From Segniliparus sp. (lineage in GTDB: Bacteria; Actinomycetota; Actinomycetes; Mycobacteriales; Mycobacteriaceae), in NCBI RefSeq assembly GCF_051660745.1, contig NZ_JBOFQF010000038.1, forward strand, positions 75,039 through 107,038: a stretch of 32,000 nt of DNA, written 5' to 3'. The notes under the pieces were generated by a model. That model was not told the DNA's origin. It searched no databases and saw only the letters and a list, made by a program, of their open reading frames with translations. The position numbers and the translations under genes were made by a program. Of the stretch, positions 10,477 to 32,000 are shown piece after piece. Position 1 is the stretch's first letter. The number at the start of each line of letters is the position of its first letter.

Positions 10477-10929
10477 ATGGCTGAGATAGATATCACACCC
10501 CCGCCGAAGTGGCTCAAGCTCGTCAACAAAGGCATGGTCTTCGCGCAGCGCGCGCTCGGAGTCACGATGGGCCCGGTCCACGTGCTGACCGTCCCCGGCC
10601 GGACTTCCGGCGAGCCGAGGTCCACCCCGATGTCGATCGTGGCGTTGAACGGCGCCCGCTACGTCGTCGCGGGCTACGCGAAATCCGATTGGGTGCGCAA
10701 CGCCCGCGCCGCGAAGGCCGGGACGCTCTCGGTGGGCAAGAAATCGCAGGACGTGGGCATTGTCGAGGTCGACGCGGACGAAGCGCGCCCGGTGCTGCGC
10801 GAATTCCCGACCCAAGTCCCCACCGGGGTGGGGTTCATGAAGCGCAGCGGCGTGGTCGAGAACGGCACGCCCGAGGAGTTCGAGGCGTTGGCGGGCTCTG
10901 TCGTCGTCTTCCGTTTCGACTCTTTGTGA
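10477..10929 (+). CDS. Nitroreductase-family deazaflavin (F420)-dependent oxidoreductase (DDN family)
   Basis: LKLVNKGMVFAQRALG...HVLTVPGRTSGEPRSTPMSIVALNGARYVVAGYAKSDWVRNARAAKAGTL is the DDN/PF04075-type pattern (GRKSG/GRTSG...P..., sDWvrN). Its last 25 nt form the left copy of the islet-flanking repeat. Confidence 0.85.
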   Translation: MAEIDITPPPKWLKLVNKGMVFAQRALGVTMGPVHVLTVPGRTSGEPRSTPMSIVALNGARYVVAGYAKSDWVRNARAAKAGTLSVGKKSQDVGIVEVDADEARPVLREFPTQVPTGVGFMKRSGVVENGTPEEFEALAGSVVVFRFDSL

Positions 10930-10931
10930 TC
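10905..10931. repeat. Left copy of the imperfect direct repeat flanking the GC-poor islet (attL-like)
   Basis: cgtcttccgtttcgactc(tttgt)gatct here, versus cgtctttccgcttcgactcgatct at 14055-14078. The 18-nt core differs by one substitution and one single-base indel, followed by a shared gatct. Confidence 0.55.
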
Positions 10932-11605
10932 TCCCTGCGGATAGCTGGGGTCTTCGGAGAGTTTGCTGTGTGGTTGCGGCCAACGAAAGTTGCAGCAGTG
11001 CTTGGCTTGGCGGAGCCGAGTCTCCAGCGAAACCAGTCCGAGTGCGCAGCTTCGGGTGCGCAGCCCTGGTTTTGTGCTGTTTCCCATGTGCCGAGCGGAG
11101 CGCAATGGTGATGGGGTAGGAATTTGGAGGTTTGAGCGTGATGGCAGAGTTTGCTGATTTGGGCGGTAGAGGGCCAAGGGGTCAATCTCATATGCAGACA
11201 AAGCCGTGAAGTCGGAAACTATTTTCGGGAAGAGATGCGCGCTCGTGTGGATGCCTGCAACGCGCCCTTGGGGAAATAGAGGCGGAGCGTGCGAGTCGGA
11301 ATGGGAGATCGAGTCTTGGTCTTTTGGCACGCGACGGGACTTGATGTCCGGCCAGCCGGGAATTGACTGGTCGTTTTTCCGCTGTTAGTGCAGCTCGATC
11401 CGGCCATCATTCGGCTCTCTTAAGGTATGGTGGCTCTCTGTCGGATCGTCCCTGCGCGGCTGGCGATGCCTCCGGATGGCCTTATCCGACCCCAGGGTTC
11501 GTCGATGCGTCTACCGGTCTATAGTCCGCTTCATGGGTAGTATGTTCCATACGCGTGCCCACCCCAGGGGACGCGGCGGAACTCATTGAACAAGGTAGGG
11601 CAGGC

Positions 11606-12772
11606 ATGATGCCAGTCGAGAATAAGACCACTAATTTGAACGCCGCCAGGGCAGCCAAGAACGATGAGTTTTACACGCAGTGGGCTGACATCGAGCGCGA
11701 GATCAATGCGTACCTCGAGTACGATCCGGATGTGTTCCGGGGCAAAGTGGTGTTGTTGCCATGCGATGATCCGGAATGGAGTAATTTCGCTAAATTCTTC
11801 GCCTTGCACTTCGTCGCCCTTGGCCTCAAAAAACTCATATCAACATCGTATGCCCCGGACAGCAAGCCTGCCAGTCATTTCTATACCCCGACGGATTTCG
11901 AGGCTGCCGACCCCAAATTTGATGCGACCAAGACGCGACTCAACGGTAAGAAGTTTGTGCTGGAGCCGACGGATATCAACGGTGATGGTATGGTCAACAT
12001 CGATGACCTGCAGTGGGAGTATCTTGACGGCGATGGCGACTTCCGCAGCTTAGAAGTGACTAAGCTCCGCGACGAAGCGGACATCGTGATCACCAACCCG
12101 CCGTTCAGCCTCTTCCGGGAGTTCGTGACCTGGCTGATCGAGGGCGGTAAGCAGTTTGCAGTGATCGGTAGCAACAACGCGATCACTTACGCTGAGGTTT
12201 TCCCGCACATCAAGTCAAATCGGTTATGGAAGGGTGCGACTGCGAACAGCACCGACATGGTGTTCGGAGTCCCGAAGGGCGCAAAGGTATCCGATGCGGA
12301 CCGGCTGAAGGCCGAGAAGCTCGGTTACCCGTCAGACGACGAGCGGGACTACACGCGGCTCGGCAACTCCTGCTGGTTCACAAACATCGACCACGGCCGA
12401 CGCCACGAACCGTTGCAGCTCATGACTATGGCTGACAACCTCAAGTTCAACAAGCGGTTGATCAAGAAGCTCGACGGTGAAGAGAGCTACCAGCGCTACG
12501 AGAACTTCGATGCGATCGAAGTGCCGTACACGGATGCGATCCCATCCGACTTCGTCGGTGCGATGGGTGTGCCGATTACGTTCCTTGACAGATACAATCC
12601 GGATCAGTTCGAGATCATTGGTAACGGCGAGGGGCGTTTGGCGGCGGCAATGGGAGTTACCCCGCTTGGGCCCGACTTCGTAGGGAATCAGGGGCGTACT
12701 AAGCTAGGCATCGCGAGCACCAAGCAGGCAGTTTTCAAACGTATTCTCATCCGGCGGAAGGACGCCTCTTGA
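11606..12772 (+). CDS. EcoRI-like (PF13651-type) N6-adenine-specific DNA methyltransferase
   Basis: [23 protein letters not shown]...[16 protein letters not shown]...[17 protein letters not shown]...[12 protein letters not shown]. The NDEFYT N-terminal motif, the LLPCDD SAM-pocket region and catalytic NPPF are the hallmarks I associate with the EcoRI-methylase-like family. ATG 11606 (SD-like aaggtaggg upstream) is preferred; GTG 11555 is an alternative. Confidence 0.85.
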
Positions 12773-13935
12773 AGACCGAACTCAAGCACTACACCGTCGG
12801 GGAAATCATCACGGGTTTCGTCTACAACGAGATGGAGGGCAAGGGTCTCTTCGGTCTTGACGGCAAGCTCGTCATCCAGCCGGAGTATCAGCGCAACTAC
12901 ATTTATAACGACGGCAAGCGTGATGTCGCGGTAATAGATTCGCTGCTCAAGGGGTATCCGCTCGGGCTGATTTACTTCAACGTCGAAGGTGAAATGCTCG
13001 AAGTTCTGGACGGCCAGCAACGGATCACAAGCTTTGGTCGCTTCGTGACCGGAAAGTTTGCCATCAAGGTCGACGGCAAAGAGCAGACGTTTTCCTCGCT
13101 GCCCAAAGATCAACAGCAAAAGATCTTGGATACCAAGCTCGATATCTATGAATGCGAAGGCGATGAGGCCGAGATTAAGCAGTGGTTCGAGACAATTAAT
13201 ATAGCGGGCGTACCGTTGAATAAACAAGAGCTATTGAACGCGATCTACTCGGGACCATTCGTCACTGCCGCCAAGGTCGAATATAGCAACTCAAACAACG
13301 CGAACATGCAGAAATGGCAGTCCTACATTGCTGGCGACCCCAGGCGTCAGCAGATCCTCGCCGAGGCGTTGGCATGGGTAGCTTCGTTGCAGAAATTGAG
13401 CATCGATGCCTACCTGGCGCAGCATCGACAGGATGGCAATATCAAGCAGTTGAGGACCTATTTTACATCGGTAATCGACTGGGTCAGCAGCGTCTTCACC
13501 CGACCACCTGACAAAGAGATGCGCGGCCTTGAATGGGGTCGGCTATATGAGGTCTACCACTCGAAGTCCTACAGTGAGTCGATGATCGAAAATCGAGTCG
13601 AAGAACTGCGCAAGGATCCGTTTATCGGCAACCGTAAAAATATCTACGAGTTTCTACTCGGGGGTGAGACTGATACGCAGCTTTTAGAGATCCGGTTATT
13701 CGACAAGAAAATAAAAGCACTCGCTTACGATCAACAGACTGGCAAGGCTAAAGTTGCCGGTATCTCGAACTGCCCGCTGTGCGCCGTAGGAAATAATCCC
13801 AATAAGACCCGCATCTACAAGGACAATGAGATGGATGCCGACCATGTCGCAGCCTGGTCAAAGGGCGGTAAGACTGATCTGACCAACTGCGAAATGCTCT
13901 GTGTGACGCATAATCGCGCCAAAGGCAACAAGTAA
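12769..13935 (+). CDS. DUF262 (ParB/GmrSD-N-like) domain protein with C-terminal HNH endonuclease
   Basis: The TTG start overlaps the MTase stop (TTGA at 12769-12772). N-terminus: [11 protein letters not shown]...[16 protein letters not shown]...[12 protein letters not shown] (the DGQQR motif of DUF262). C-terminus: CPLCAVGN...[34 protein letters not shown] (CxxC...DH...N...HN, a His-Me finger). Confidence 0.85.
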
Positions 13936-14054
13936 TACTCGGTTTCATCTTCTGTCTAGGATCGGTGGGGTGGAGCTTGTTCGGCCCATGCCGTGCATAT
14001 GTCCCACATCGGCAGACCAAAGCCGACGTGTCCCAGTTGTAGATGGCGACTGGC

Positions 14055-14078
14055 CGTCTTTCCGCTTCGACTCGATCT
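14055..14078. repeat. Right copy of the islet-flanking direct repeat (attR-like); retains an in-frame pseudo 3' end ...SFRFDSI*
   Basis: tct ttc cgc ttc gac tcg atc tag reads SFRFDSI-stop. The intact DDN gene ends ...VFRFDSL-stop at 10929. Similarity does not extend further upstream. Confidence 0.55.
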
Positions 14079-18251: not shown

Positions 18252-18282
18252 ACTCGACGGGGCGGTGTCGGGAGTTTGTGCC

Positions 18283-19251
18283 ATGCTGATGCCTATGGAG
18301 CTCGTGTCCCTCGCCGATATCAAGGCCGCCCGTTCGCGGATCGCGCCCGACGTGGTGCGCACGCCGCTGGTCCCGGTGCTGCGCGCCTCGGGCCCGGCGC
18401 GTTCGTTGTGGCTCAAACCGGAGAATCTGCAGCCCACCGGGGCGTTCAAACTGCGCGGGGCTTTGAACGCGGTGCGCAAGCTGAACGCCGAGCAGCGCTC
18501 GGCTGGCGTGGTGACGCATTCCAGCGGCAACCACGGCCAGGCCTTGGCGTACGCGGGAAAGCTGGAAGGCGTGTCAGTCGTGGTGGTGATCCCGAAGAAC
18601 GCGCCCGCCGTCAAGATCGAGGCGTGCGAGGCGCACGGCGCGGAGGTGGTGTTGGTCGAGCCCGCCGAGCGCGAGCCCGCGATGCTGCGGCTCGCGCAGG
18701 AGCGCGGCCTCGTGGTGATCCCGCCCTACGACCACCCGGACATCATCGCGGGCCAGGGCACCGTCGGCTTGGAGATCGCGGAGGACTTGCCGAAGGTCGA
18801 GAACGTGCTCGTGCCGGTGGGCGGCGGCGGGCTGCTCTCCGGCGTCGCGGCGGCGATCAAGGCGCTGCTGCCCACCGGGGCGAGGGTGATCGGCGTCGAG
18901 CCGGAGCTGGCCGCCGACGCCAAGGAGAGCAGGGAAGCCGGATCGGTCGTCTCGTGGCCGGTCGAGCTCCGGAGCCGGACCATCGCCGACGGTCTGCGCA
19001 CGCAGCTTTCCGAGCTCACGCTGGCGCACGTCAGGGAGTTGGTGGACGACATCGTCACCGTCACCGAGGAGGAGATCGAAGCGTCGGTCCGCTGGCTCGC
19101 GCGCGAGGCGCGCATCGTCGCGGAGCCGTCCGGCGCGGTGACGACGGCGGCGTTCCTCTCCGGGAAAACACCGGAAGGCCTGACGGCGGCCGTCGTGAGC
19201 GGCGGCAACGTGGACCCGGCGCTCTACGCGAGCATGATCGCCGCGAGCTGA
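18283..19251 (+). CDS. PLP-dependent serine/threonine dehydratase (threonine ammonia-lyase / serine-racemase-like, PALP family)
   Basis: LWLKPENLQPTGAFKLRGA (PLP lysine), VVTHSSGNHGQALAYA, PVGGGGLLSG. ATG 18283 lies 8 nt after gggag. Confidence 0.85.
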   Translation: MLMPMELVSLADIKAARSRIAPDVVRTPLVPVLRASGPARSLWLKPENLQPTGAFKLRGALNAVRKLNAEQRSAGVVTHSSGNHGQALAYAGKLEGVSVVVVIPKNAPAVKIEACEAHGAEVVLVEPAEREPAMLRLAQERGLVVIPPYDHPDIIAGQGTVGLEIAEDLPKVENVLVPVGGGGLLSGVAAAIKALLPTGARVIGVEPELAADAKESREAGSVVSWPVELRSRTIADGLRTQLSELTLAHVRELVDDIVTVTEEEIEASVRWLAREARIVAEPSGAVTTAAFLSGKTPEGLTAAVVSGGNVDPALYASMIAAS

Positions 19252-19262
19252 GCGCCTCGCGG
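19241..19262. terminator. Hairpin between convergent genes (ccgcgag-ctgagcgc-ctcgcgg), possible bidirectional terminator
   Basis: A 7-bp GC-rich stem with an 8-nt loop spans the dehydratase stop codon. There is no U-tract, as is common in actinobacteria. Confidence 0.3.
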
Positions 19263-19532
19263 CTACCTCTTTTTGACCGGCGGTTTCGCGGGCGGGATCT
19301 GAGCCTGCGGGCCTAAGCCCCCGGCGGCCATCTCGGGGCCGATCAGCGCGCCCGTCCCGAAGTTCTCCCCCTGGTCCTGGACCGGGTTGGGGATGTCGCC
19401 CGCGCCGTTGTCGTCGTTGTGGCCGTGCCCGTCGCCGTCGTCGGCGAACGCAAGAGCCGCGGGCAGCGCGGTCGTGCCTGCGGCTCCGCCCAGCGCAAGG
19501 GCGAGGAACATGGCGGAGAGTGTCTTTTTCAT
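19263..19532 (-). CDS. Small secreted acidic Gly/Asp/His-rich protein
   Basis: MKKTLSAMFLALALGGAAGTTALPAALAFA is a signal peptide. The mature part is DDGDGHGHNDDNGAGDIPNPVQDQGENFGTGALIGPEMAAGGLGPQAQIPPAKPPVKKR. TGGAG SD upstream of ATG 19532. No family recognised. Confidence 0.5.
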   Translation of the reverse strand: MKKTLSAMFLALALGGAAGTTALPAALAFADDGDGHGHNDDNGAGDIPNPVQDQGENFGTGALIGPEMAAGGLGPQAQIPPAKPPVKKR

Positions 19533-19569
19533 GGTGTGCTCCAATCAATTGAGGGGTTGGCGGCGGGTT

Positions 19570-21540
19570 TCAATGCGAGCGAGGGTCGGTGAGGATCTCG
19601 ACGAGGGCTGGTCCGGGATGGGCGAGGGCTTCGGCGACTGCGCCCCGCAACGCCGAGGGGTCGTCGACGCGCTTGCCGTATGCCCCGCAGTTCTGGGCGA
19701 AGGCGGCGAAGTCGGGGTTGTGCAGCGAGGTGTGCCAGACCTCGTACTCGCTGCTGCGCTGCTCGTCGCTGATCTTGGCCAGTTCGGCGTTGTTGAGCAG
19801 GATGTGCGTGATGTTCATCCCGTACTTCACGGCAGTGGTGAGCTCGGCGAGGTACTGGCCGAAGCCGCCGTCCCCGGTGATGGCGACGACGGGGCGCTCT
19901 GGAGCCGCCGCCCAGGCCCCCATGGCGGCGGGGAATCCGAAGCCGATGGAGCCGAGGTAGCCGGACATGAGGACCGACTGCTCTGTCGCCTCGAAGTACC
20001 GCCCGAAGGAGTAGGCGTGGTTGCCGACGTCGACGGCCAGCACCGCGTCGGACGGGAGCAGCGCGTTGAGCTCGTGGAAGACCGTCGCGGCGGCCACCCG
20101 GCCCGGGGGGCGCTCTGCGGCTCGCCGGGCTTTCTCGGCCCGCCAGACCGCCCAGCGCTCGGCGATCTCGGCCCGTTGGTCGACGAGGTCCTGGCCGGCG
20201 CGGCACTCGTCCAACAGGGCTGCCGCCGTGAGGCCGATATCGCCGAGCACCGGGACGTCGACCGGGCGGAACCGGCCAAGGGCGAGCGGGTCGGTGTCGA
20301 CTTGGACGGTCGTCTTGTACGGGGAGATGCCGGTGTGGTTCGAGAAGGAGGCGCCGAACACGAGCAGCAGGTCGGCCTTGTTCATCATCCACGAGGCCAC
20401 CGGCGTGCCCGAGCGTCCGAGCACGCCGCAGGCGAGCGGGTGCTGGTCAGAGATCTGCCCCTTCGCTTTGAACGTGGTCAGCACGGGGGCGCCGAGGCGC
20501 TCGGCGAGCGCCTCGACAGCGGGCATGTCGAATTTGGCCCCGGCTCCGACGACGACCAGCGGCCTGCGGGCGGCCGCGATCCTGTCCAGCGCGGCCCGCA
20601 GGGCCGAGGGGGGAGGCGCCACGCGGAGGTCCGGCATCCGCCCGGCCGGGCCGGAAGCCCGCGCGCCTGCGGCCGGCAGCACTTGCACTTCGTCGGGCAG
20701 GACGAGATGGCCGACGCCTCGTTCGAGCACGGCGCGTTTGAGCGCCGTCGTCATCAGCTCGGCGTGGTCCGATCCGGAGCGCACCATCGCCGAGTACACA
20801 GCCACGTCGGCGAACGCGGCGAGCAGGTCGATGTCCTGGAAGGCGCCCTTGCCCGCCACGGAGGAGTCCACGTTGCCGGAGAGCGCGAGCACGGGGGAGC
20901 GGTCGGCTTTCGCGTCGTAGAGCCCGGTGAGCAGGTTCGTCGAGCCCGGCCCGGCGATGCCGAAGCAGGCTGCGGGCCGCCCGACGAGCTTGCCGTACGC
21001 GGAGGCCGCGAAAGCCGCCGCCCCCTCGTGCCGGACGCCGAAGTAGCGCAGCCTCCCGTCGGACTCGGCCCGGTGCAGAGCCTCGGCCAGCCCGAGATTG
21101 GAGTGGCCGACCATGCCGAAAACGGTGTCGACCCCCCAGTTCGTCATCGTCTCGACGAGCACGTCGCTGACCGTCCTCGGCGCGGGGGCGGGCGCGGGCG
21201 TCCCGACGTACACGCCGTCCTCGCGTTCTTCGACGGGGTAGACGCGGACGTCGAAGTCCGGTCCGCCCGCCGCCTCGCCGGTGAACGGGTCGAAGTCGAA
21301 TCCGTGCCAGGGGCAGCGGATCTTGTCGTTCTCCAGGGTGCCTTGCCCCAACGGGCCGCCTTGGTGCGGGCAGCGGTTGTCGACCGCGCCGTACGCGCCG
21401 CGCAGCTTGGTCAGCGCGACGGTCTTCTGCCCTGCGGGACACGAGACGACCTGCCCGTCTTCGAGCTCGTCGCGGGCGGCGACTTTGTGCCAGACCGTGG
21501 CGTCTTCGTGGGCTGGTTGGCTGTCGAAGCCGCCGCTCAT
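19570..21540 (-). CDS. Rieske [2Fe-2S] domain fused to a TPP-dependent pyruvate-oxidase / acetolactate-synthase-like enzyme
   Basis: ATG 21540 overlaps the upstream stop (ATGA). N-terminal Rieske: CPHQGGPL...CPWHGFDF. Then three TPP-enzyme domains: VFGMVGHSNLGL...GPGSTNLLTGLYDA (Pyr), a central domain, and ITGDGGFGQYLAELTTAVKYGMNITHILLNN (GDG...NN TPP-Mg motif). The track ORF extending to 22953 is an out-of-frame read-through. Confidence 0.85.
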   Translation of the reverse strand: MSGGFDSQPAHEDATVWHKVAARDELEDGQVVSCPAGQKTVALTKLRGAYGAVDNRCPHQGGPLGQGTLENDKIRCPWHGFDFDPFTGEAAGGPDFDVRVYPVEEREDGVYVGTPAPAPAPRTVSDVLVETMTNWGVDTVFGMVGHSNLGLAEALHRAESDGRLRYFGVRHEGAAAFAASAYGKLVGRPAACFGIAGPGSTNLLTGLYDAKADRSPVLALSGNVDSSVAGKGAFQDIDLLAAFADVAVYSAMVRSGSDHAELMTTALKRAVLERGVGHLVLPDEVQVLPAAGARASGPAGRMPDLRVAPPPSALRAALDRIAAARRPLVVVGAGAKFDMPAVEALAERLGAPVLTTFKAKGQISDQHPLACGVLGRSGTPVASWMMNKADLLLVFGASFSNHTGISPYKTTVQVDTDPLALGRFRPVDVPVLGDIGLTAAALLDECRAGQDLVDQRAEIAERWAVWRAEKARRAAERPPGRVAAATVFHELNALLPSDAVLAVDVGNHAYSFGRYFEATEQSVLMSGYLGSIGFGFPAAMGAWAAAPERPVVAITGDGGFGQYLAELTTAVKYGMNITHILLNNAELAKISDEQRSSEYEVWHTSLHNPDFAAFAQNCGAYGKRVDDPSALRGAVAEALAHPGPALVEILTDPRSH

Positions 21541-23165
21541 AGGGGTGTCGCTCCTGCGTAGGGGACTCCGCTGAGATACGCGAAGTCGCGGTCGAAAGTC
21601 ACGAGGTCGTCCAGCTCGAAGTCCGCGAGCCGCCGATGGCCGCACGCCCTGGCGAGCACGGCCATCAGGTCCACGCTGGCGCGCAGGAACCTGTCCAACC
21701 GCTCTGCGGCGGACCGCACGGGCAGCCGGGCGCGCAGCCGGGGGTCTTGGGTGGCGATGCCAGCGGGGCAGGCGTTCGTGTCGCAGGCCCGCATGCCGAC
21801 GCAGCCGACGGCCTGGATCGCGGCGTTGGAGAGGCCGATGGCGTCCGCGCCGAGCGCCAGGGCTTTGGCCATGTCCGCCGCAGTACGCAGGCCGCCGGTG
21901 ACGGCCAGGGTCACGCCGTCGGCGCGGGAGCGGTCCAGATGCCGCCGCGCCCGCGCCAACGCCGGGATGGTGGGCACGGAGATGTTGTCGCGGAAGACCA
22001 ACGGGGCGGACCCCGTCCCGCCGCCCCTGCCGTCGAGGATGATGTAGTCGACCCCGATCTCCAGCGCCGCGTCGATGTCCCGCTCGATGTGCTGCGCGCT
22101 CATCTTGTATCCGACGGGGATGCCGCCGGACTCCTCCCGCACCTGTTGCGCGAAGTCCGCGAACTGGCTGAGCGACGTCCAGTCCGGGAACCGGGCCGGG
22201 GAGACAGCCGCCGTGCCGGGCGGCAGCCCCCGGACCTCGGCGATCTTCCCGACCACCTTCGCCCCCGGCAGGTGCCCGCCGGTGCCGGTCTTCGCGCCTT
22301 GCCCGCCTTTGAAATGGAACGCCTGGACTTTCCGGACGTGCTCGATGCTCCATCCGAAACGTCCGGACGCGAGCTCGTAGAAGTACTTCGAGTTCTCCTG
22401 CTGCTCCTCGGGCAGCATGCCGCCCTCGCCGGAGCAAATACCGGTGCCGGAGAGCTCGGCCCCCATCGCGAGCGCCGTTTTCGCCTCCTGCGACAGCGCG
22501 CCGAAGCTCATGTCGCTCACGAACAGGGGGATGTCGAGCGTCAACGGCTTTCGGGCGTTCGGCCCGATCACGGTCGCCGTCCCGACCGGCTCGTCGTCGA
22601 GCAAGGGCAGGCGCGCGAGCTGCGCGGTCAGGATCTGGATCGAGTCCCAGGAGGGGAGCTGCCCGCGCGGCACCCCCATCGCGGCGGTCGGGCCGTGCGC
22701 GCCGGATCCGCGCAGGCCGCGCGCGGCGAATTCGTGGATCTGCGTGACGAAGGGCTCCTCGGCGGTGTCCGAGGGCTTGATCCATCGGCCTTGGTACCCG
22801 TCGTCCGAGTAATCCCTCGGGTCGGCCTTGGCGTGTGCGGCGACCGCCGCGCCGTCGACGTACACCGAGCCCTCCGACACCCAAGCGGGGAAAGAGCCCA
22901 GGGAGACCGCCGGGTTGACCGGGGAGACGCCGGTGTCGAGCTCGTAGCGCCACCCGTGCACCCCGCAGACGAGGAGCCCGCCTTCGACCCGCCCGTCCGC
23001 CATCAGCGCCCCGCGATGCGCGCAGCGCCCGTGCAGGGCGTGGACCTGCTCGCCGCGTCGGACGAGGACGAGGTCCACCCCGTGCGCGACCACGGCGTGC
23101 GGGGAGCTTTCGGGCAATTCGGCGAGCGAGGCCACGCGGAGGGTGGGGGTCTGTGCTGTGGTCAT
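21537..23165 (-). CDS. Rieske [2Fe-2S] domain fused to a glutamate-synthase-related FMN-binding domain (GltB domain-2-like)
   Basis: N-terminal CAHRGALM...CGVHGWRY. Then DIPLFVSDMSFGALS, FKGGQGAKTGTGGHLPG, ILDGRGGGTGSAP, GGLRTAADMAKALALGADA, CDTNACPAGIATQDP, which is the conserved GltS FMN / Fe-S module. Confidence 0.85.
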   Translation of the reverse strand: MTTAQTPTLRVASLAELPESSPHAVVAHGVDLVLVRRGEQVHALHGRCAHRGALMADGRVEGGLLVCGVHGWRYELDTGVSPVNPAVSLGSFPAWVSEGSVYVDGAAVAAHAKADPRDYSDDGYQGRWIKPSDTAEEPFVTQIHEFAARGLRGSGAHGPTAAMGVPRGQLPSWDSIQILTAQLARLPLLDDEPVGTATVIGPNARKPLTLDIPLFVSDMSFGALSQEAKTALAMGAELSGTGICSGEGGMLPEEQQENSKYFYELASGRFGWSIEHVRKVQAFHFKGGQGAKTGTGGHLPGAKVVGKIAEVRGLPPGTAAVSPARFPDWTSLSQFADFAQQVREESGGIPVGYKMSAQHIERDIDAALEIGVDYIILDGRGGGTGSAPLVFRDNISVPTIPALARARRHLDRSRADGVTLAVTGGLRTAADMAKALALGADAIGLSNAAIQAVGCVGMRACDTNACPAGIATQDPRLRARLPVRSAAERLDRFLRASVDLMAVLARACGHRRLADFELDDLVTFDRDFAYLSGVPYAGATPL

Positions 23166-23170
23166 GCGCG

Positions 23171-23833
23171 TCAGCCCTCGTGCCCTTTGAGAAGGTCCGC
23201 GAACGGCGTGACGCGCGTGTCGACGTTGTTGCCGGAGGTCCTGGCCTGGTCCTCTTCCCGCTGGGCGAAACCAGGCAGGGGCACGCGCTCGGCCACGACC
23301 TGGCAGGCGAGCTCGGAGGCGGCGCGGCGGATCCGGGCCGACAGCTCCACGCCTCCGGAACCGGCCCCGAAGTCGCTGGTCGCGGCGAAGACTCCGGTCG
23401 GGACGACCACGGCGCGCAGGTAGGAGAACAGGGGGCGCAGCGCGTGGTCGAGCACGAGGGAATGCCGCTCGGAGCCCGCCGTCGCGGCGATCAGGACCGG
23501 CGTCCCGACCAGGGAGGCCGTGTCGAGGACGTCGAAGAACAGTTTGAACAGCCCCGAGTAGCTCGCGCTGAACACGGGGGTCACCGCGACGAGCCCCTCC
23601 GCCGCCGCGATTTTCTCCCGGGCCTCGGCGATCGCGAGCGTCGGCAGCCCGCCGGTGGCGACCGTGGTGGCCAGGTCCTGCGCGAGCGGCCGCAATTCGA
23701 CGAACTCGACCTCCGCGCCCTCGCCGCGCGCGGTGATCTGCGTCGTGACCGCCGCCGCGATCCGGTCGGCGAGCAGCCTGGTCGTGGAGGGCTCGCCGAG
23801 CCCTCCGGAGACGACTGCGATGCGTCGCGCCAT
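23171..23833 (-). CDS. NAD(P)H-dependent FMN reductase (LLM-partnered, CE1759-like)
   Basis: MARRIAVVSGGLGEPSTTRLLA...GLVAVTPVFSASYSGLFKLFFD...PVLIAATAGSERHSL, an SsuE/MsuE-type flavodoxin-like reductase. It starts 1 nt after the LLM stop. Confidence 0.85.
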   Translation of the reverse strand: MARRIAVVSGGLGEPSTTRLLADRIAAAVTTQITARGEGAEVEFVELRPLAQDLATTVATGGLPTLAIAEAREKIAAAEGLVAVTPVFSASYSGLFKLFFDVLDTASLVGTPVLIAATAGSERHSLVLDHALRPLFSYLRAVVVPTGVFAATSDFGAGSGGVELSARIRRAASELACQVVAERVPLPGFAQREEDQARTSGNNVDTRVTPFADLLKGHEG

Positions 23834-23834
23834 G

Positions 23835-24998
23835 TCAGTGCGCCCTTCTCGTCGTGCCCTTTGCCGGGTCGCGCTGCGCGGCGTCCTCGACGTCTGCGGT
23901 GATGACCCGGCGGTGCTTGGACTGCTCGCCCTGCGCCAGCAGGGACTGGTGGGTCGGCGGCTCGCTCGGCACATGCGCGGGGCGGCGCAGCTCGAACTCC
24001 TTGCGCAGCACGGGGACCACTTCCTTGCCGAGGATCTCGATCTGCTCGAGCACGACCTCGCGCGGCAGCCCCGCGTGGTCGACGAGGAACAGCTGGCGCT
24101 GGTAGTCGCCCACCGCGTCGGCGAAACCGAGCGTGCGCTCCACGACCTGCTCGACCGTGCCGACGGTCAGGGGGGTGTCGCGGGTGAAGTCTTCGAGCGA
24201 GGGCCCGTGGCCGTAGACCGGGGCGTTGTCGAAGTACGGGCGGAAGAACCGCTTCGCCTCTGCCTCGGTCTCGGCGATGAACGCCTGCCCGCCCAAGCCG
24301 ACGACGGCCTGGTCGGCGCAGCCGTGCCCGTAGTGCTCGAACCGCTGCCGGTACAGCCGCACCATCTGCGAGGTGTGCTCAAGGTCCCAAAAGATATTGT
24401 TGTGGAAGAAGCCGTCGCCGTAGAACGCGGCCTGCTCGGCGATCTCTGTGGAGCGGATCGAGCCGTGCCACACGAACGGCGGCACGCCGTCCAGCGGCGC
24501 CGGGGTCGAGGTGAAGCCGTGCAACGGGGTGCGGAACTGGCCGTTCCAGTCCACGACGGGCTCGCGCCACAGCCTGCGCAGCAGGTGGTAGTTCTCGACC
24601 GCGAGGTTGATCCCTTGGCGGATGTCTTTGCCGAACCATGGGTACACCGGACCGGTGTTCCCCCGGCCCATGATGAGGTCGACCCGGCCGTCGGAGAGGT
24701 GCTGCAGCATCGCGTAGTCCTCGGCGATCTTCACCGGGTCGTTCGTGGTGATCAGCGTGGTCGCGGTGGACAGCAGCAGCGTGCTGGTCCGCGCCGCGAT
24801 CCAGCCCAGCATCGTGGTCGGCGAGGACGGCACGAACGGGGGGTTGTGGTGCTCGCCGGTGGCGAAGACGTCGAGCCCGACCTCCTCCGACTTGAGCGCG
24901 TACGACAGCATCGCCTCGAGGCGCTCGTGCTCGCTGGGCCGCCTGCCGGTCGTCGGGTCCTTCGTCACATCGCCGACGCTGAAAATGCCGAACTGCAT
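23835..24998 (-). CDS. Luciferase-like (LLM class) flavin-dependent monooxygenase (CE1758-like)
   Basis: MQFGIFSVGDV...GLDVFATGEHHNPPF...LSTATTLITTNDPVKIAEDYAMLQHLSDGRVDLIMGRGN is the bacterial luciferase family pattern. It is the first gene of the four-gene operon. Confidence 0.85.
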   Translation of the reverse strand: MQFGIFSVGDVTKDPTTGRRPSEHERLEAMLSYALKSEEVGLDVFATGEHHNPPFVPSSPTTMLGWIAARTSTLLLSTATTLITTNDPVKIAEDYAMLQHLSDGRVDLIMGRGNTGPVYPWFGKDIRQGINLAVENYHLLRRLWREPVVDWNGQFRTPLHGFTSTPAPLDGVPPFVWHGSIRSTEIAEQAAFYGDGFFHNNIFWDLEHTSQMVRLYRQRFEHYGHGCADQAVVGLGGQAFIAETEAEAKRFFRPYFDNAPVYGHGPSLEDFTRDTPLTVGTVEQVVERTLGFADAVGDYQRQLFLVDHAGLPREVVLEQIEILGKEVVPVLRKEFELRRPAHVPSEPPTHQSLLAQGEQSKHRRVITADVEDAAQRDPAKGTTRRAH

Positions 24999-25146
24999 AG
25001 ATATTCATCCCTGTTGTATACGCAGGGCCGGATCCTGGCCCTCCTGCACGATTGAACACATCAGCCCGTCTGGCAACAAGGGCGGGCTGTTCCCAGGGAC
25101 TGGCAGACCCTCTGTCGGAGGGGCGCTCGGCCCTTATGGTGGGAGG

Positions 25147-25974
25147 ATGGAGCACCGCAAAGACATCCGCGACTTCCTGGCCTCGCGCCGGGCGAAGATC
25201 ACCCCGGAGGAGGCGCAGGTCCCGGTGTACGGGGGCAAGCGCCGCGTCCCCGGCCTGCGCCGCGAGGAGGTCGCCCTGCTCGCCGGGGTCAGCGTGGACT
25301 ACTACACGCGGCTCGAGCGCGGCAATTTGCGCGGCGTGTCCGACACCGTCCTGAACTCGGTGGCCGCCGTGCTCCGCCTCGACGAATCAGAGCGAGCCCA
25401 TCTGTTCGACCTCGCCCGAGGCTCCGCCTCCGGCGGCGCGGGCAGGCGGAGGGCCGCGTCGCCGCTACGCCCGGCGCTCCGCCATGTCCTGGATGCGCTG
25501 GCCGGGGCGCCTGCCTGGATCAGCGACGAGCGGCTCGACGTGCTCGCCGCGAACGCCCTGTGCGCCGCCCTCTATCAAGACGCGTTCGCCGAGCAGGGCC
25601 GGGAGCCGAACCTCGCGCGGTTCGTGTTCCTCGACCCGAGGTCGCGGGACTTCTTCCTCGACTGGGGCCAGCACGCCGACAACGCCGCCGCCAGCTTGTG
25701 CGCCGCGACGGGCAGGCACCGGGGCGACGAGAAGCTCGCCGCGCTCGTCGCCGAGCTTCGCGCTGGGAGCGACGACTTCCGCGCCCGGTGGCAGGCGCAC
25801 GACGTGCGGCTCCAGCTCGACGGGGCCAAGGGCTTGCAGCACCCGGTCGCGGGCAGGCTCGACCTCGTCTACGAGCGGCTGCAGCTGCCGTCGGACGCGG
25901 GGCTCACGCTCTTCGTGCTCGTGGCCGAGCCGGGGTCCCCCACGGCGGACCGTCTCAAACTCCTGGGCGGCTGA
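25147..25974 (+). CDS. MmyB-like XRE-family HTH transcriptional regulator
   Basis: LRDFLASRRAKITPEEAQVPVYGGKRRVPGLRREEVALLAGVSVDYYTRLERGN is the diagnostic MmyB-family N-terminus, followed by a C-terminal ligand-binding-type domain. GGGAGG SD. Divergent from the LLM operon. Confidence 0.85.
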   Translation: MEHRKDIRDFLASRRAKITPEEAQVPVYGGKRRVPGLRREEVALLAGVSVDYYTRLERGNLRGVSDTVLNSVAAVLRLDESERAHLFDLARGSASGGAGRRRAASPLRPALRHVLDALAGAPAWISDERLDVLAANALCAALYQDAFAEQGREPNLARFVFLDPRSRDFFLDWGQHADNAAASLCAATGRHRGDEKLAALVAELRAGSDDFRARWQAHDVRLQLDGAKGLQHPVAGRLDLVYERLQLPSDAGLTLFVLVAEPGSPTADRLKLLGG

Positions 25975-31091: not shown

Positions 31092-32000
31092 TCACTTCCT
31101 CGCGTTGGCCTCGGAGATGTGCTCGCCGACCTTCTTGAGCAGCGGCGGCATGTCCATCTTGGCCACCACGGCCTCGATGAGCACGAGCCGGTCCTGCGCC
31201 GCCCCGGCCTTCTCGATGGCGGCGCGCAGGCCGCCGACGGTGTCGACCCGGAGGGCCAGCGGGTCGGTCGTGGGCTCGAAGGCGCTGAGCAGTTTCGCGT
31301 AGTCCCAGTGGTCGATGTCGTTGTAGTGCTGCTCGGCGCCGTGGATCGCGCGCTCGACGGTGTACCCGTCGTTGTCCACCACCACGACGACCGGGTTGAG
31401 GCCGTGGCGGAGGACGACCGACAGCTCCTGCGCGGTGAGCTGCGCGGAGCCGTCGCCGATGAGCAGCACGACCCGCCGGTCCGGGCAGGCGAGCCCCGCG
31501 CCGAGCGCGGCGGGCAGGGTGTAGCCGATGGAGGCCCACAGCGGCTGGCCGATGAACGTGACCCCGGCGGGCAGCGGATGGGTGGCGAGGCCGAAGAACG
31601 AGGTGCCCGCCTCGGCGATGACGATGTTGCCGGGGGTGACCGCGTGGGCCAGAAGGTCCCACATCGAGGCCTGGGCCAGCGGCTCCGCGTCGGCAGGCTC
31701 GGGGGGCTTGGCGGCGGGCCGGGCCTGCGGGGCGGGCGGGCGCTCCCGGTCCGCGATGAGCTCGGCGAGCGCGCCGAGCGCGTCGCGCATCTCCAGCGGG
31801 GCGAACAGCTCGCCCGCGACGGTCGACTCGTGCGGGGCGATGTCCACCGTCTTGGCGGGGTCGACGCGGTGCGTGAAGAAACCGCTGATCAGATCGGTGA
31901 ACTGGACCCCGGCGAGGATGAGCGCCTCGGCCTCCTCCACGCCCTCGCGCACGCGCGGCTCGCTGTTGGCCCCGATATAGATGCCGAGGAAGTTCGGGTC
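31092..32000 (-). CDS. TPP-dependent alpha-keto-acid (indolepyruvate/pyruvate) decarboxylase, C-terminal part (N-terminus beyond the window)
   Basis: FIGQPLWASIGYTLPAALGA...LLIGDGSAQLTAQELSVVLRHGLNPVVVVVDNDGYTVERAIHG carries the GDG...N(D)GYT TPP-binding motif of the PDC/IPDC family. The frame stays open to position 32000. Confidence 0.85.
   Translation of the reverse strand, partial: DPNFLGIYIGANSEPRVREGVEEAEALILAGVQFTDLISGFFTHRVDPAKTVDIAPHESTVAGELFAPLEMRDALGALAELIADRERPPAPQARPAAKPPEPADAEPLAQASMWDLLAHAVTPGNIVIAEAGTSFFGLATHPLPAGVTFIGQPLWASIGYTLPAALGAGLACPDRRVVLLIGDGSAQLTAQELSVVLRHGLNPVVVVVDNDGYTVERAIHGAEQHYNDIDHWDYAKLLSAFEPTTDPLALRVDTVGGLRAAIEKAGAAQDRLVLIEAVVAKMDMPPLLKKVGEHISEANARK

What the first reader, a model, noticed from the sequence alone, without database searches (positions are those of the whole stretch)
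19570..25974. Four-gene operon LLM monooxygenase - FMN reductase - Rieske::GltS-like FMN protein - Rieske::TPP enzyme, with a divergent MmyB-like regulator
The four minus-strand genes are packed with a 1-nt gap, a 5-nt gap and an ATGA overlap (23833/23835, 23165/23171, 21537-21540). Two consecutive proteins each carry an N-terminal Rieske 2Fe-2S module with complete ligand sets (CAHRG...CGVHG and CPHQG...CPWHG). These are fused to unrelated catalytic cores: a glutamate-synthase-type FMN/Fe-S domain and a pyruvate-oxidase/ALS-like TPP enzyme. Established knowledge: the LLM plus partnered FMN reductase resemble the CE1758/CE1759 paired families (from memory, TIGR04036/TIGR04037), whose substrate is unknown. 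Inference: the matched Rieske domains suggest an electron relay between a TPP-dependent 2-oxo-acid-transforming step and an FMN-dependent amine/imine redox step, combined with a two-component flavin monooxygenation. That would be a coherent pathway, but I know of no characterisation of it. MmyB-like regulators commonly control specialised-metabolite or xenobiotic operons.
Basis: partly seen in the sequence, partly recalled or inferred. Interest (0 to 1): 0.6.

Follow-up and report, generated by a model that had tools for sequence, protein, structure and literature searches.

The report
Two unrelated gene pairs placed together
The four tightly packed genes are real, but they are two independent two-gene units that sit together only in this mycobacterial genus: an ordinary luciferase-like monooxygenase with its FMN reductase, and a widespread, strongly conserved and apparently unstudied pair of flavoenzymes that each carry a Rieske iron-sulfur domain.

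Summary
Observation confirmed. The coordinates, the 1-nt and 5-nt gaps, the ATGA overlap, all domain assignments, both Rieske ligand sets and the divergent MmyB-like regulator are as described.

Interpretation partly supported.
- In 80 loci from more than 8 phyla that carry the Rieske::TPP fusion, the Rieske::GltS-like gene is adjacent in about 41. The LLM and the FMN reductase are adjacent in none.
- In 15 other genomes that carry the CE1758-type LLM, no Rieske pair lies within 8 kb.
- A sister species of the same genus is syntenic across the whole window and keeps the LLM, reductase and regulator intact. The Rieske pair there is reduced to a roughly 390-nt relic.

The locus is therefore two juxtaposed modules.

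The Rieske pair is the interesting part. All cluster ligands, the [3Fe-4S] cysteines and the ThDP motifs are invariant across phyla, and dN/dS is about 0.14. I found no publication on it. Each fusion also occurs alone. In other lineages the pair or the solo TPP fusion has other neighbours: a membrane di-haem Rieske protein, a flavodoxin-like protein, or ergothioneine genes.

Most likely mechanism (inferred): a PoxB-like 2-oxoacid oxidase passes electrons out through its Rieske domain to the GltS-like FMN/[3Fe-4S] enzyme.

This scan has already reported the same pair several times on other DNA.

The parts
19240..19263 (.). GC-rich hairpin followed by a T-run. It is the only terminator-like site in 19000-25400 and lies between the convergent PALP gene and the minus-strand gene string.
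19266..19532 (-). Small ORF (88 aa) with a signal-peptide-like N-terminus. It starts 37 nt after the TPP stop codon. It has no family match. Most of it is missing in the sister species.
19570..21540 (-). Rieske [2Fe-2S] domain (residues about 17-112) fused by a Pro/Ala linker to a pyruvate-oxidase/PoxB-like ThDP enzyme with N, M and C domains. It lacks the PoxB C-terminal tail.
21537..23165 (-). Rieske [2Fe-2S] domain (residues about 10-104) fused to a glutamate-synthase-type FMN domain with the C-x5-C-x4-CP [3Fe-4S] motif. It has no amidotransferase, central or GXGXG domain.
23171..23833 (-). CE1759-family NAD(P)H-dependent FMN reductase (TIGR04037).
23835..24998 (-). CE1758-family FMN-dependent luciferase-like monooxygenase (TIGR04036).
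24999..25146 (.). 148-nt divergent intergenic region between the LLM and the regulator. It is presumably the promoter/operator region. No sigma-70 consensus was found.
25147..25974 (+). MmyB-like transcription regulator (HTH_31 plus MLTR_LBD). It is conserved next to the LLM only in the same genus.

Best explanation
The string of minus-strand genes is a lineage-specific juxtaposition of two self-contained two-gene modules. It is probably read as one transcript here.

Module 1 is LLM plus FMN reductase, with the MmyB-like regulator in this genus. It is a standard two-component flavin monooxygenase of the CE1758/CE1759 families. The reductase makes FMNH2 from NAD(P)H, and the LLM uses it with O2 on an unknown substrate.

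Module 2 is Rieske::GltS-like plus Rieske::TPP. It is an ancient cassette found in many phyla.

Inferred mechanism for module 2:
- The PoxB/POX-like ThDP (probably FAD) enzyme oxidatively decarboxylates a 2-oxoacid, most likely pyruvate.
- It lacks the PoxB membrane tail. It therefore hands the electrons one at a time to its own low-potential, ferredoxin-type Rieske domain.
- In genomes with the pair, that domain reduces the Rieske domain of the GltS-like protein.
- That protein relays the electrons through its [3Fe-4S] cluster to FMN. FMN then reduces a 2-imino/2-oxo-dicarboxylate-type substrate. This would be glutamate-synthase-like chemistry without NAD(P)H or free ferredoxin.

What is shown: modularity, conservation, cofactor-ligand integrity and purifying selection. 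What is inferred: direction of electron flow, substrates and physical contact.

Rough odds:
- Two independent modules: about 0.85.
- The two Rieske enzymes work in one process: about 0.65.
- Direct transfer from the TPP enzyme to the GltS-like enzyme: about 0.4.
For: - All 80 loci with the TPP fusion lack the LLM, the reductase and (bar one weak hit) the MmyB regulator within 8 kb. The GltS-like fusion is adjacent in 22 of 22 mycobacterial and about 19 of 58 other loci. ORF clustering found no other broadly conserved neighbour.
- DNA similarity to 22 mycobacterial loci covers only 19570-23141, exactly the two genes.
- In a sample of 400 genomes of the class, the TPP fusion occurs in 15 and the GltS fusion in 9. 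Seven have both, and in all seven the two genes are adjacent.
- TIGR04036 scores over its cut-off in only 2 of those 15 genomes, and it is unlinked in both.
- The LLM occurs in 36 of 61 relatives. The reductase is adjacent in 12 of 16 LLM loci, and the Rieske pair in none of the 15 other genomes.
- Sister species G401 is syntenic from ABC-F to the second methyltransferase. Where the pair should be, it has a roughly 390-nt spacer. The spacer holds a relic of GltS residues 370-413 (68% identity, E 2e-12). G401 has no Rieske fusion elsewhere. Its LLM and reductase are intact.
- Rieske ligands, [3Fe-4S] cysteines, the GDG..NN motif, the catalytic Glu and the GAK/E/R positions are invariant across phyla.
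- dN/dS is 0.13-0.14 for the pair and 0.19-0.21 for LLM and reductase.
- The nearest solved structures are L. plantarum POX and E. coli PoxB for the TPP core. The match ends at PoxB residue 527 of 572, so there is no C-terminal tail. For the GltS-like protein they are the GltS alpha FMN domains 7MFM, 1EA0 and 2VDC.
- Both Rieske domains resemble the ferredoxin components of oxygenases (AndAb, HcaC, CarAc, T4moC) and lack the extra cysteine pair of bc1-type Rieske proteins (sequence). Rieske-ferredoxin to Rieske-centre transfer is established in ring-hydroxylating oxygenase systems (own knowledge).
Against: - Each fusion also occurs without the other. Eight of 15 genomes with the TPP fusion lack the GltS fusion. 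Four of 5 further GltS-fusion genomes in the phylum sample lack the TPP fusion. The Rieske domains must therefore also serve other partners.
- Other neighbours recur. A Ferric_reduct (di-haem) membrane::Rieske protein lies in 4 paired loci. A flavodoxin-like FMN_red protein lies in 8 solo-TPP loci.
- FAD binding, the substrate and the direction of electron flow were not tested.
- Within this genome the 5-nt gap and the lack of a terminator mean that all four genes are probably co-expressed. A local functional link cannot be excluded.
- No transcript data were available.
Confidence: 0.7

Rival explanations
1. First reader's view. The four genes encode one pathway under the MmyB-like regulator. 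A ThDP-dependent 2-oxoacid step and an FMN-dependent amine/imine step are joined by a Rieske relay, and both feed or complement the two-component flavin monooxygenation.
For: - Tight packing (1-nt gap, 5-nt gap, ATGA overlap), with no terminator-like site until 19240.
- The relic in G401 shows that the arrangement predates the split of the two species.
- Solo Rieske-TPP genes in other lineages often sit beside an FMN_red-fold protein. A flavin-reductase-type partner is therefore not absurd.
Against: - None of 80 Rieske-TPP loci holds the LLM or the reductase.
- None of 15 other LLM loci holds the pair.
- TIGR04036 is present in only 2 of 15 genomes with the TPP fusion, and it is unlinked there.
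- G401 kept LLM, reductase and regulator intact and under purifying selection after losing the pair.
- The recurrent FMN_red-like neighbour shows no detectable similarity to the CE1759 reductase.
Confidence: 0.1
2. The two Rieske enzymes do not exchange electrons with each other. Both are dehydrogenases of one catabolic route. The GltS-like enzyme runs in reverse to turn an amino acid into a 2-oxoacid plus NH3. The TPP enzyme then turns the 2-oxoacid into an acyl product plus CO2. Each uses its Rieske domain as an outlet to a shared third acceptor, such as a membrane di-haem Rieske protein, a soluble Rieske ferredoxin, a quinone or a flavodoxin-like protein.
For: - Both fusions occur alone in many genomes.
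- A Ferric_reduct::Rieske membrane protein lies 1-3 kb from the pair in 4 loci of other phyla.
- A DoxX/DoxD::Rieske protein lies near a solo TPP fusion.
- The product of the first enzyme would be the substrate class of the second.
- G000 has a stand-alone 127-aa Rieske ferredoxin with the same CPHQGGP...CPWHG motifs as the TPP fusion.
Against: - No Ferric_reduct domain scores over its cut-off, and no membrane::Rieske fusion was found, in G000. The proposed shared acceptor is therefore unidentified here.
- Known GltS FMN domains work physiologically in the reductive direction (own knowledge).
- The strict adjacency and translational coupling in all 22 mycobacterial loci fit a direct couple at least as well.
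Confidence: 0.25
3. The Rieske pair in this genome is a decaying passenger on its way to loss, as in the sister species, with no current function.
For: - The pair has been lost in both other genomes of the genus that were searched.
- It lacks the ECF sigma, DUF5996 and TetR genes that precede it in several Mycolicibacterium loci.
Against: - Both ORFs are full length.
- All cofactor ligands are intact.
- dN/dS against Mycolicibacter arupensis is 0.13-0.14.
Confidence: 0.04

Closest known systems
E. coli PoxB (pyruvate:ubiquinone oxidoreductase, PDB 3EY9/3EYA) and Lactobacillus plantarum pyruvate oxidase (PDB 1POX/1Y9D)
   Same: Three-domain ThDP enzyme core. It scores 224-231 bits over residues 122-651. 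The best NCBIfam hit is pyruvate oxidase NF006377 at 380 bits. The catalytic Glu and the GDG..NN ThDP motif are invariant.
   Different: - It scores far below the equivalog cut-off (380 against 742 bits).
- It has an N-terminal Rieske domain that no characterised POX or PoxB has.
- It lacks the last 45 or so residues of PoxB. These include the lipid-binding C-terminal peptide (own knowledge).
- The electron acceptor is therefore probably a protein-bound Fe-S centre, not quinone or O2.
Glutamate synthase alpha subunit / Fd-GltS, FMN ('synthase') domain (PDB 7MFM, 1EA0, 2VDC, 1LLW)
   Same: PF01645 at 292 bits. The C-x5-C-x4-CP [3Fe-4S] motif aligns with that of GltS. The GAK, SGEGG and Arg positions are conserved.
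   Different: - It consists only of the FMN domain.
- It has no Ntn-amidotransferase, central or C-terminal beta-helix domain.
- The conserved GltS stretch ISPPPHHDIYS is replaced by VSPARFPDWTS.
- An N-terminal Rieske domain stands where GltS uses ferredoxin or the beta subunit.
Rieske-type ferredoxin components of oxygenase systems (CarAc 1VCK, T4moC 1VM9, AndAb, HcaC) and NirD
   Same: Both N-terminal domains match these best. They have the C-x-H-x16-C-x2-H ligand spacing and no bc1-type disulfide cysteines.
   Different: They are fused covalently to flavoenzymes instead of being free shuttles. No oxygenase partner is encoded nearby.
CE1758/CE1759 two-component LLM plus FMN reductase families (TIGR04036/TIGR04037; nearest structures 2I7G and 3K1Y)
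   Same: Both proteins score above the curated cut-offs, and the genes are adjacent, as the families are defined.
   Different: Nothing differs, apart from the lineage-specific neighbours. The substrate of the families is unknown, and both nearest structures carry only generic names: 'Monooxygenase' and 'oxidoreductase'.

Membership tests
TIGR04036 CE1758-family LLM | Whole-protein score above the curated cut-off (479.1 bits) | tested here: met
   684 bits over profile positions 1-354 of 355
TIGR04036/TIGR04037 pair | LLM adjacent to a CE1759-family FMN reductase | tested here: met
   There is a 1-nt gap in the window. The reductase scores 265.6 bits against a cut-off of 175.9. The reductase is adjacent in 12 of 16 LLM loci examined.
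Pyruvate oxidase / PoxB (NF006377, NF006591) | Equivalog score above cut-off | tested here: not met
   379.6 bits against 742, and 303.7 against 792
Pyruvate oxidase / PoxB | ThDP-binding GDG-x(24-27)-NN motif and catalytic Glu in the PYR domain | tested here: met
   G556-D557-G558 ... N583-N584 and E172 are invariant or nearly so in 81 sequences
Pyruvate oxidase / PoxB | FAD bound in the middle domain | tested here: inconclusive
   The middle domain aligns well with L. plantarum POX. No cofactor-specific test was possible with these tools.
PoxB | C-terminal membrane-binding peptide | tested here: not met
   The alignment ends at PoxB residue 527 of 572, and the query ends 5 residues later
Glutamate synthase (GltB/GltS, NF008730) | Full large-subunit architecture: amidotransferase, central, FMN and GXGXG domains | tested here: not met
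   Only profile positions 865-1131 of 1490 are matched, at 133 bits against a cut-off of 1047. A normal 1526-aa GltB lies elsewhere in the genome.
Glu_synthase FMN domain (PF01645) | Domain score above cut-off, plus three [3Fe-4S] cysteines | tested here: met
   292 bits. C455, C461 and C466-P467 are invariant in 37 of 37 sequences.
Rieske [2Fe-2S] (PF00355), ferredoxin type | The 2 Cys and 2 His ligands are present and conserved. No bc1-type disulfide pair. | tested here: met
   60.3 and 55.7 bits. The ligands are invariant in 81 of 81 and in 36-37 of 37 orthologues. The motifs CPHQGG/CPWHG and CAHRG/CGVHG lack the extra cysteines.
MmyB-like regulator | N-terminal HTH plus MLTR_LBD ligand-binding domain | tested here: met
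   PF17765 at 180.5 bits and HTH_31 at 33 bits
Proposed four-gene operon as a conserved unit | Co-occurrence or adjacency of the LLM/reductase with the Rieske pair in other genomes | tested here: not met
   None of 80 loci, none of 15 loci, and 2 of 15 genomes, unlinked in both. Adjacency is seen only in this genus, and there only as a relic in G401.

The most novel reading that the evidence does not exclude
The Rieske::TPP protein is an oxygen-tolerant, PFOR-like '2-oxoacid:Rieske oxidoreductase'. It would act as a general low-potential electron-donor module for interchangeable flavoprotein or haem clients: the GltS-like FMN/[3Fe-4S] enzyme, a flavodoxin-like FMN_red protein, and a membrane di-haem Rieske protein. 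In this genus it would also have been wired behind the CE1759 reductase, so that pyruvate rather than NAD(P)H can drive the LLM monooxygenase.
Probability: 0.12. Interest if true: 0.75.

Novelty: new variant of a known kind. Interest (0 to 1): 0.5.

Why it matters
The four-gene 'pathway' should not be used to guess the substrate of the CE1758/CE1759 monooxygenases, or the reverse. The association is a local accident of genome history.

The Rieske pair matters more.
- It is a highly conserved cassette, 58-82% identical across more than 8 phyla.
- It occurs in Mycobacteroides abscessus, many environmental mycobacteria, marine symbionts and cyanobacteria.
- It joins two textbook enzyme cores to built-in iron-sulfur carriers.
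- I found no study of it.

If the proposed couple is right, it would be a route that links 2-oxoacid oxidation directly to reductive amination, or another FMN-dependent reduction, without pyridine nucleotides. The natural loss in a sister species, and the intact copies in culturable mycobacteria, make it directly testable.

Tried and rejected
- Complex prediction on the full GltS-like protein plus the Rieske domain of the TPP protein, both as 36-row alignments. The score was 0.00 and the verdict 'no answer'. This is no evidence either way.
- The look-up of sequencing runs returned no RNA holder. It listed only two runs, each holding 0.05-0.07 of the sampled words.
- The promoter scan found no sigma-70 consensus in 19000-25400. 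This is uninformative for mycobacterial promoters.
- Literature searches on these terms found nothing relevant: Rieske with pyruvate oxidase, glutamate synthase or LLM; TIGR04036, TIGR04037, CE1758 or CE1759; and DUF5996.
- A Rosetta-stone search for longer fused forms found one 1195-aa Rieske-GltS-Rieske-TPP ORF on a single 9-kb metagenomic contig. Its Glu_synthase match breaks off at profile position 250 of 369. This is probably a frameshift or assembly artefact at the overlapping stop/start, so I did not count it.
- I considered an asymmetry argument, that the GltS-like enzyme depends on the TPP enzyme but not the reverse. I dropped it when the phylum sample showed GltS fusions without TPP fusions.
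- I considered that the CE1759 reductase belongs to the same family as the FMN_red-like protein found beside solo TPP fusions. BLASTP shows no similarity between them.
- I looked for a membrane Rieske partner in the window's own genome and found none.
Full report
**1. What is in the window**

The window is high-GC DNA (about 0.70) from a 3.63-Mb genome of the Mycobacteriaceae.

On the minus strand lie, in this order:
- a luciferase-like monooxygenase (LLM) at 23835-24998;
- an FMN reductase at 23171-23833;
- a Rieske::Glu_synthase-FMN protein at 21537-23165;
- a Rieske::TPP enzyme at 19570-21540.

A MmyB-like regulator is transcribed divergently from about 25147 to 25974.

Pfam and NCBIfam confirm every assignment.

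I add three features:
- The GltS-like protein has the C-x5-C-x4-CP [3Fe-4S] motif. It aligns with the cluster motif of real glutamate synthases.
- A small ORF for a secreted peptide (19266-19532) follows the TPP gene.
- The only terminator-like hairpin lies after that ORF, at 19240-19263.

**2. Is the four-gene unit conserved? No.**

- *Loci with the TPP fusion.* A scan of one genome per prokaryotic species returned 80 loci with the Rieske::TPP fusion (58-82% identity). They come from Actinomycetota, Gemmatimonadota, Myxococcota, Planctomycetota, Acidobacteriota, Cyanobacteriota, Poribacteria, Pseudomonadota and others.
- *Flanks of those loci.* I ran tblastn on flanks of up to 8 kb. The Rieske::GltS-like gene is next door in all 22 mycobacterial loci and in about 19 of 58 others. 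The gene order and orientation vary. There was no hit to the LLM or the FMN reductase, and only one weak hit to the regulator.
- *Other neighbours.* Clustering all flank ORFs showed no other widely shared neighbour.
- *DNA similarity.* Similarity between the window and the 22 mycobacterial loci begins and ends at the borders of the two Rieske genes, 19570-23141.
- *Even sample of 400 genomes of the class.* The TPP fusion is in 15 and the GltS fusion in 9. Seven have both, and in all seven the genes are adjacent. Only 2 of the 15 have a TIGR04036 member. In one it is on another contig, and in the other it is 195 kb away.
- *LLM loci.* The LLM is common in the order, in 36 of 61 relatives. It usually has its reductase beside it, in 12 of 16 loci. 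The Rieske pair is beside it in none of the 15 other genomes. Nothing else is conserved next to it.

**3. The sister species settles it**

A genome of the same genus, G401, is syntenic with the window from the ABC-F gene to the second methyltransferase, at 77-88% DNA identity.

Between the PALP gene and the FMN reductase it has about 390 nt instead of 3.85 kb. That spacer still encodes a recognisable fragment of the GltS-like protein: residues 370-413, 68% identity, E 2e-12. The fragment runs straight into a probable remnant of the last residues of the TPP enzyme.

Neither G401 nor a third species of the genus has a Rieske fusion anywhere else. The LLM and reductase of G401 are intact and under purifying selection (dN/dS about 0.2).

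So the genus ancestor had the four genes in a row. One descendant discarded the Rieske pair and kept the monooxygenase module and its regulator.

**4. The Rieske pair itself**

*It is real, old and constrained.*
- Across 81 TPP fusions and 37 GltS-like fusions, the four Rieske ligands of each are invariant. One or two gappy rows are the only exceptions.
- Also invariant are the three [3Fe-4S] cysteines, the GDG..NN ThDP motif, the catalytic Glu, and the Lys, Glu and Arg of the GltS active-site motifs.
- dN/dS against Mycolicibacter arupensis is 0.13-0.14.
- In a tree, the window's protein sits inside a fully supported mycobacterial clade, next to M. arupensis. This is consistent with vertical descent. 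Outside that clade, adjacency to the GltS-like gene changes at least 10 times.

*Nearest known relatives.*
- The TPP core is nearest to L. plantarum pyruvate oxidase and E. coli PoxB. It stops where PoxB's C-terminal extension begins.
- The FMN domain is nearest to the GltS alpha subunits 7MFM, 1EA0 and 2VDC. It lacks every other GltS domain.
- Both Rieske domains look like the soluble ferredoxin components of oxygenase systems. They are only 26% identical to each other.

*Literature.* I found no paper on either fusion.

**5. Mechanism: what the context says**

The simplest reading is a self-contained redox couple. It would run as follows:
- 2-oxoacid oxidation takes place on the ThDP/flavin enzyme.
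- Electrons exit through its Rieske domain.
- They enter the partner through its Rieske domain and [3Fe-4S] cluster and reach FMN.
- FMN reduces an imino or oxo acid.

Transfer from a Rieske ferredoxin to a Rieske centre has precedent in ring-hydroxylating oxygenases (own knowledge).

The comparative data temper this:
- Each fusion also occurs alone.
- Four paired loci from other phyla carry a third Rieske protein, fused to a Ferric_reduct (YedZ-like di-haem) membrane domain.
- Eight solo-TPP loci in Actinomycetota and Cyanobacteriota carry a conserved 257-273-aa flavodoxin-like FMN_red protein.
- One TPP fusion overlaps the end of egtD in an ergothioneine operon.
- Several Mycolicibacterium loci put an ECF sigma factor and DUF5996 in front of the pair.

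The Rieske domains thus look like plug-in connectors with several possible partners.

The window's genome has none of those extra partners. No Ferric_reduct domain scores over its cut-off, DUF5996 is absent, and there are only six Rieske domains in all. There the two enzymes have mainly each other, plus a 127-aa soluble Rieske ferredoxin encoded elsewhere.

I therefore rank the direct couple first (about 0.4). The 'two dehydrogenases sharing a third acceptor' model comes second (about 0.25).

**6.

In this genus the pair sits 5 nt behind the FMN reductase, with a Shine-Dalgarno-like GAGGG and no terminator. It is probably transcribed from the LLM promoter and so falls under the MmyB-like regulator. 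That is a regulatory capture, not evidence of shared chemistry. A local functional link, such as pyruvate-driven supply of reduced flavin, cannot be excluded. It has no comparative support.

**7. Relation to earlier work in this scan**

The same Rieske pair has been reported repeatedly on other genomes. I re-tested the leads I used:
- the wide distribution;
- the membrane haem-Rieske neighbour;
- the ECF sigma factor that precedes the pair, where I additionally identified DUF5996 beside it;
- the ergothioneine association;
- the repeated loss in close relatives.

New here are the juxtaposition with CE1758/CE1759, the relic that dates and resolves it, and the recurrent FMN_red-like neighbour of solo TPP fusions.

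**8. Verdict**

The four-gene pathway is not supported. The LLM/reductase module is an ordinary member of known families of unknown substrate. The Rieske pair is an uncharacterised new variant of known enzyme kinds and deserves experiments.

Noticed in passing
window 10600-14055: A low-GC island (GC 0.51-0.56 against 0.70). It encodes an EcoRI-type adenine methyltransferase (11525-12772) and a GmrSD/HNH-type restriction endonuclease (12703-13935). It is absent from the syntenic sister genome G401, so it is probably a recently acquired restriction-modification or defence island.
   Followed up: partly
window 19266-19532 (-): An 88-aa ORF with a signal peptide, an Asp/Gly/His-rich middle and a basic Pro/Lys tail. 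It lies 37 nt downstream of the TPP gene and has no family match. Only its last 16 or so codons survive in G401.
   Followed up: partly
window 18265-19251 (+): A PLP-dependent Ser/Thr/3-hydroxyaspartate dehydratase-like gene, convergent with the Rieske pair. Its products would be a 2-oxoacid plus NH3, which are the presumed substrate classes of the pair. It is not a conserved neighbour in the 80 loci, so this is probably coincidence.
   Followed up: partly
L027, L029, L034, L035, L082, L083, L136, L137 (next to solo Rieske::TPP genes): A conserved 257-273-aa flavodoxin-like protein. It gives a weak PF03358 FMN_red match, and two members are 60% identical to each other. It recurs beside Rieske::TPP genes that lack the GltS-like partner, in Actinomycetota and Cyanobacteriota. 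It may be an alternative electron partner.
   Followed up: partly
L137:5338-8935: In one actinomycete the Rieske::TPP gene overlaps the end of egtD, in an egtC-egtD-Rieske::TPP string. This is the position where mycobacterial egt operons carry egtE (own knowledge).
   Followed up: no
L044:10767-11819, L073:10429-11487, L062:10263-11699, L072:4395-6014: Ferric_reduct (YedZ/MsrQ-like) membrane domain fused to a C-terminal Rieske domain. It lies 1-3 kb from the Rieske pair in Planctomycetota, Acidobacteriota and related loci.
   Followed up: partly
L106:4451-7441 (sister genome G401): G401 has about 3 kb inserted between RadC and the PALP gene. In the window these two genes are 13 nt apart. I did not examine the content.
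   Followed up: no
L126:1468-1851 (G000 contig C15): A stand-alone 127-aa Rieske ferredoxin with the same CPHQGGP...CPWHG motifs as the TPP fusion. It has a roughly 20-residue insertion between the ligand loops. Its neighbouring ORFs have no Pfam match.
   Followed up: partly
window 31092-32000 (-), running off the window end: Another ThDP enzyme without a Rieske domain, about 28% identical to the fusion's core. It is conserved in G401. It is an unrelated paralogue.
   Followed up: no
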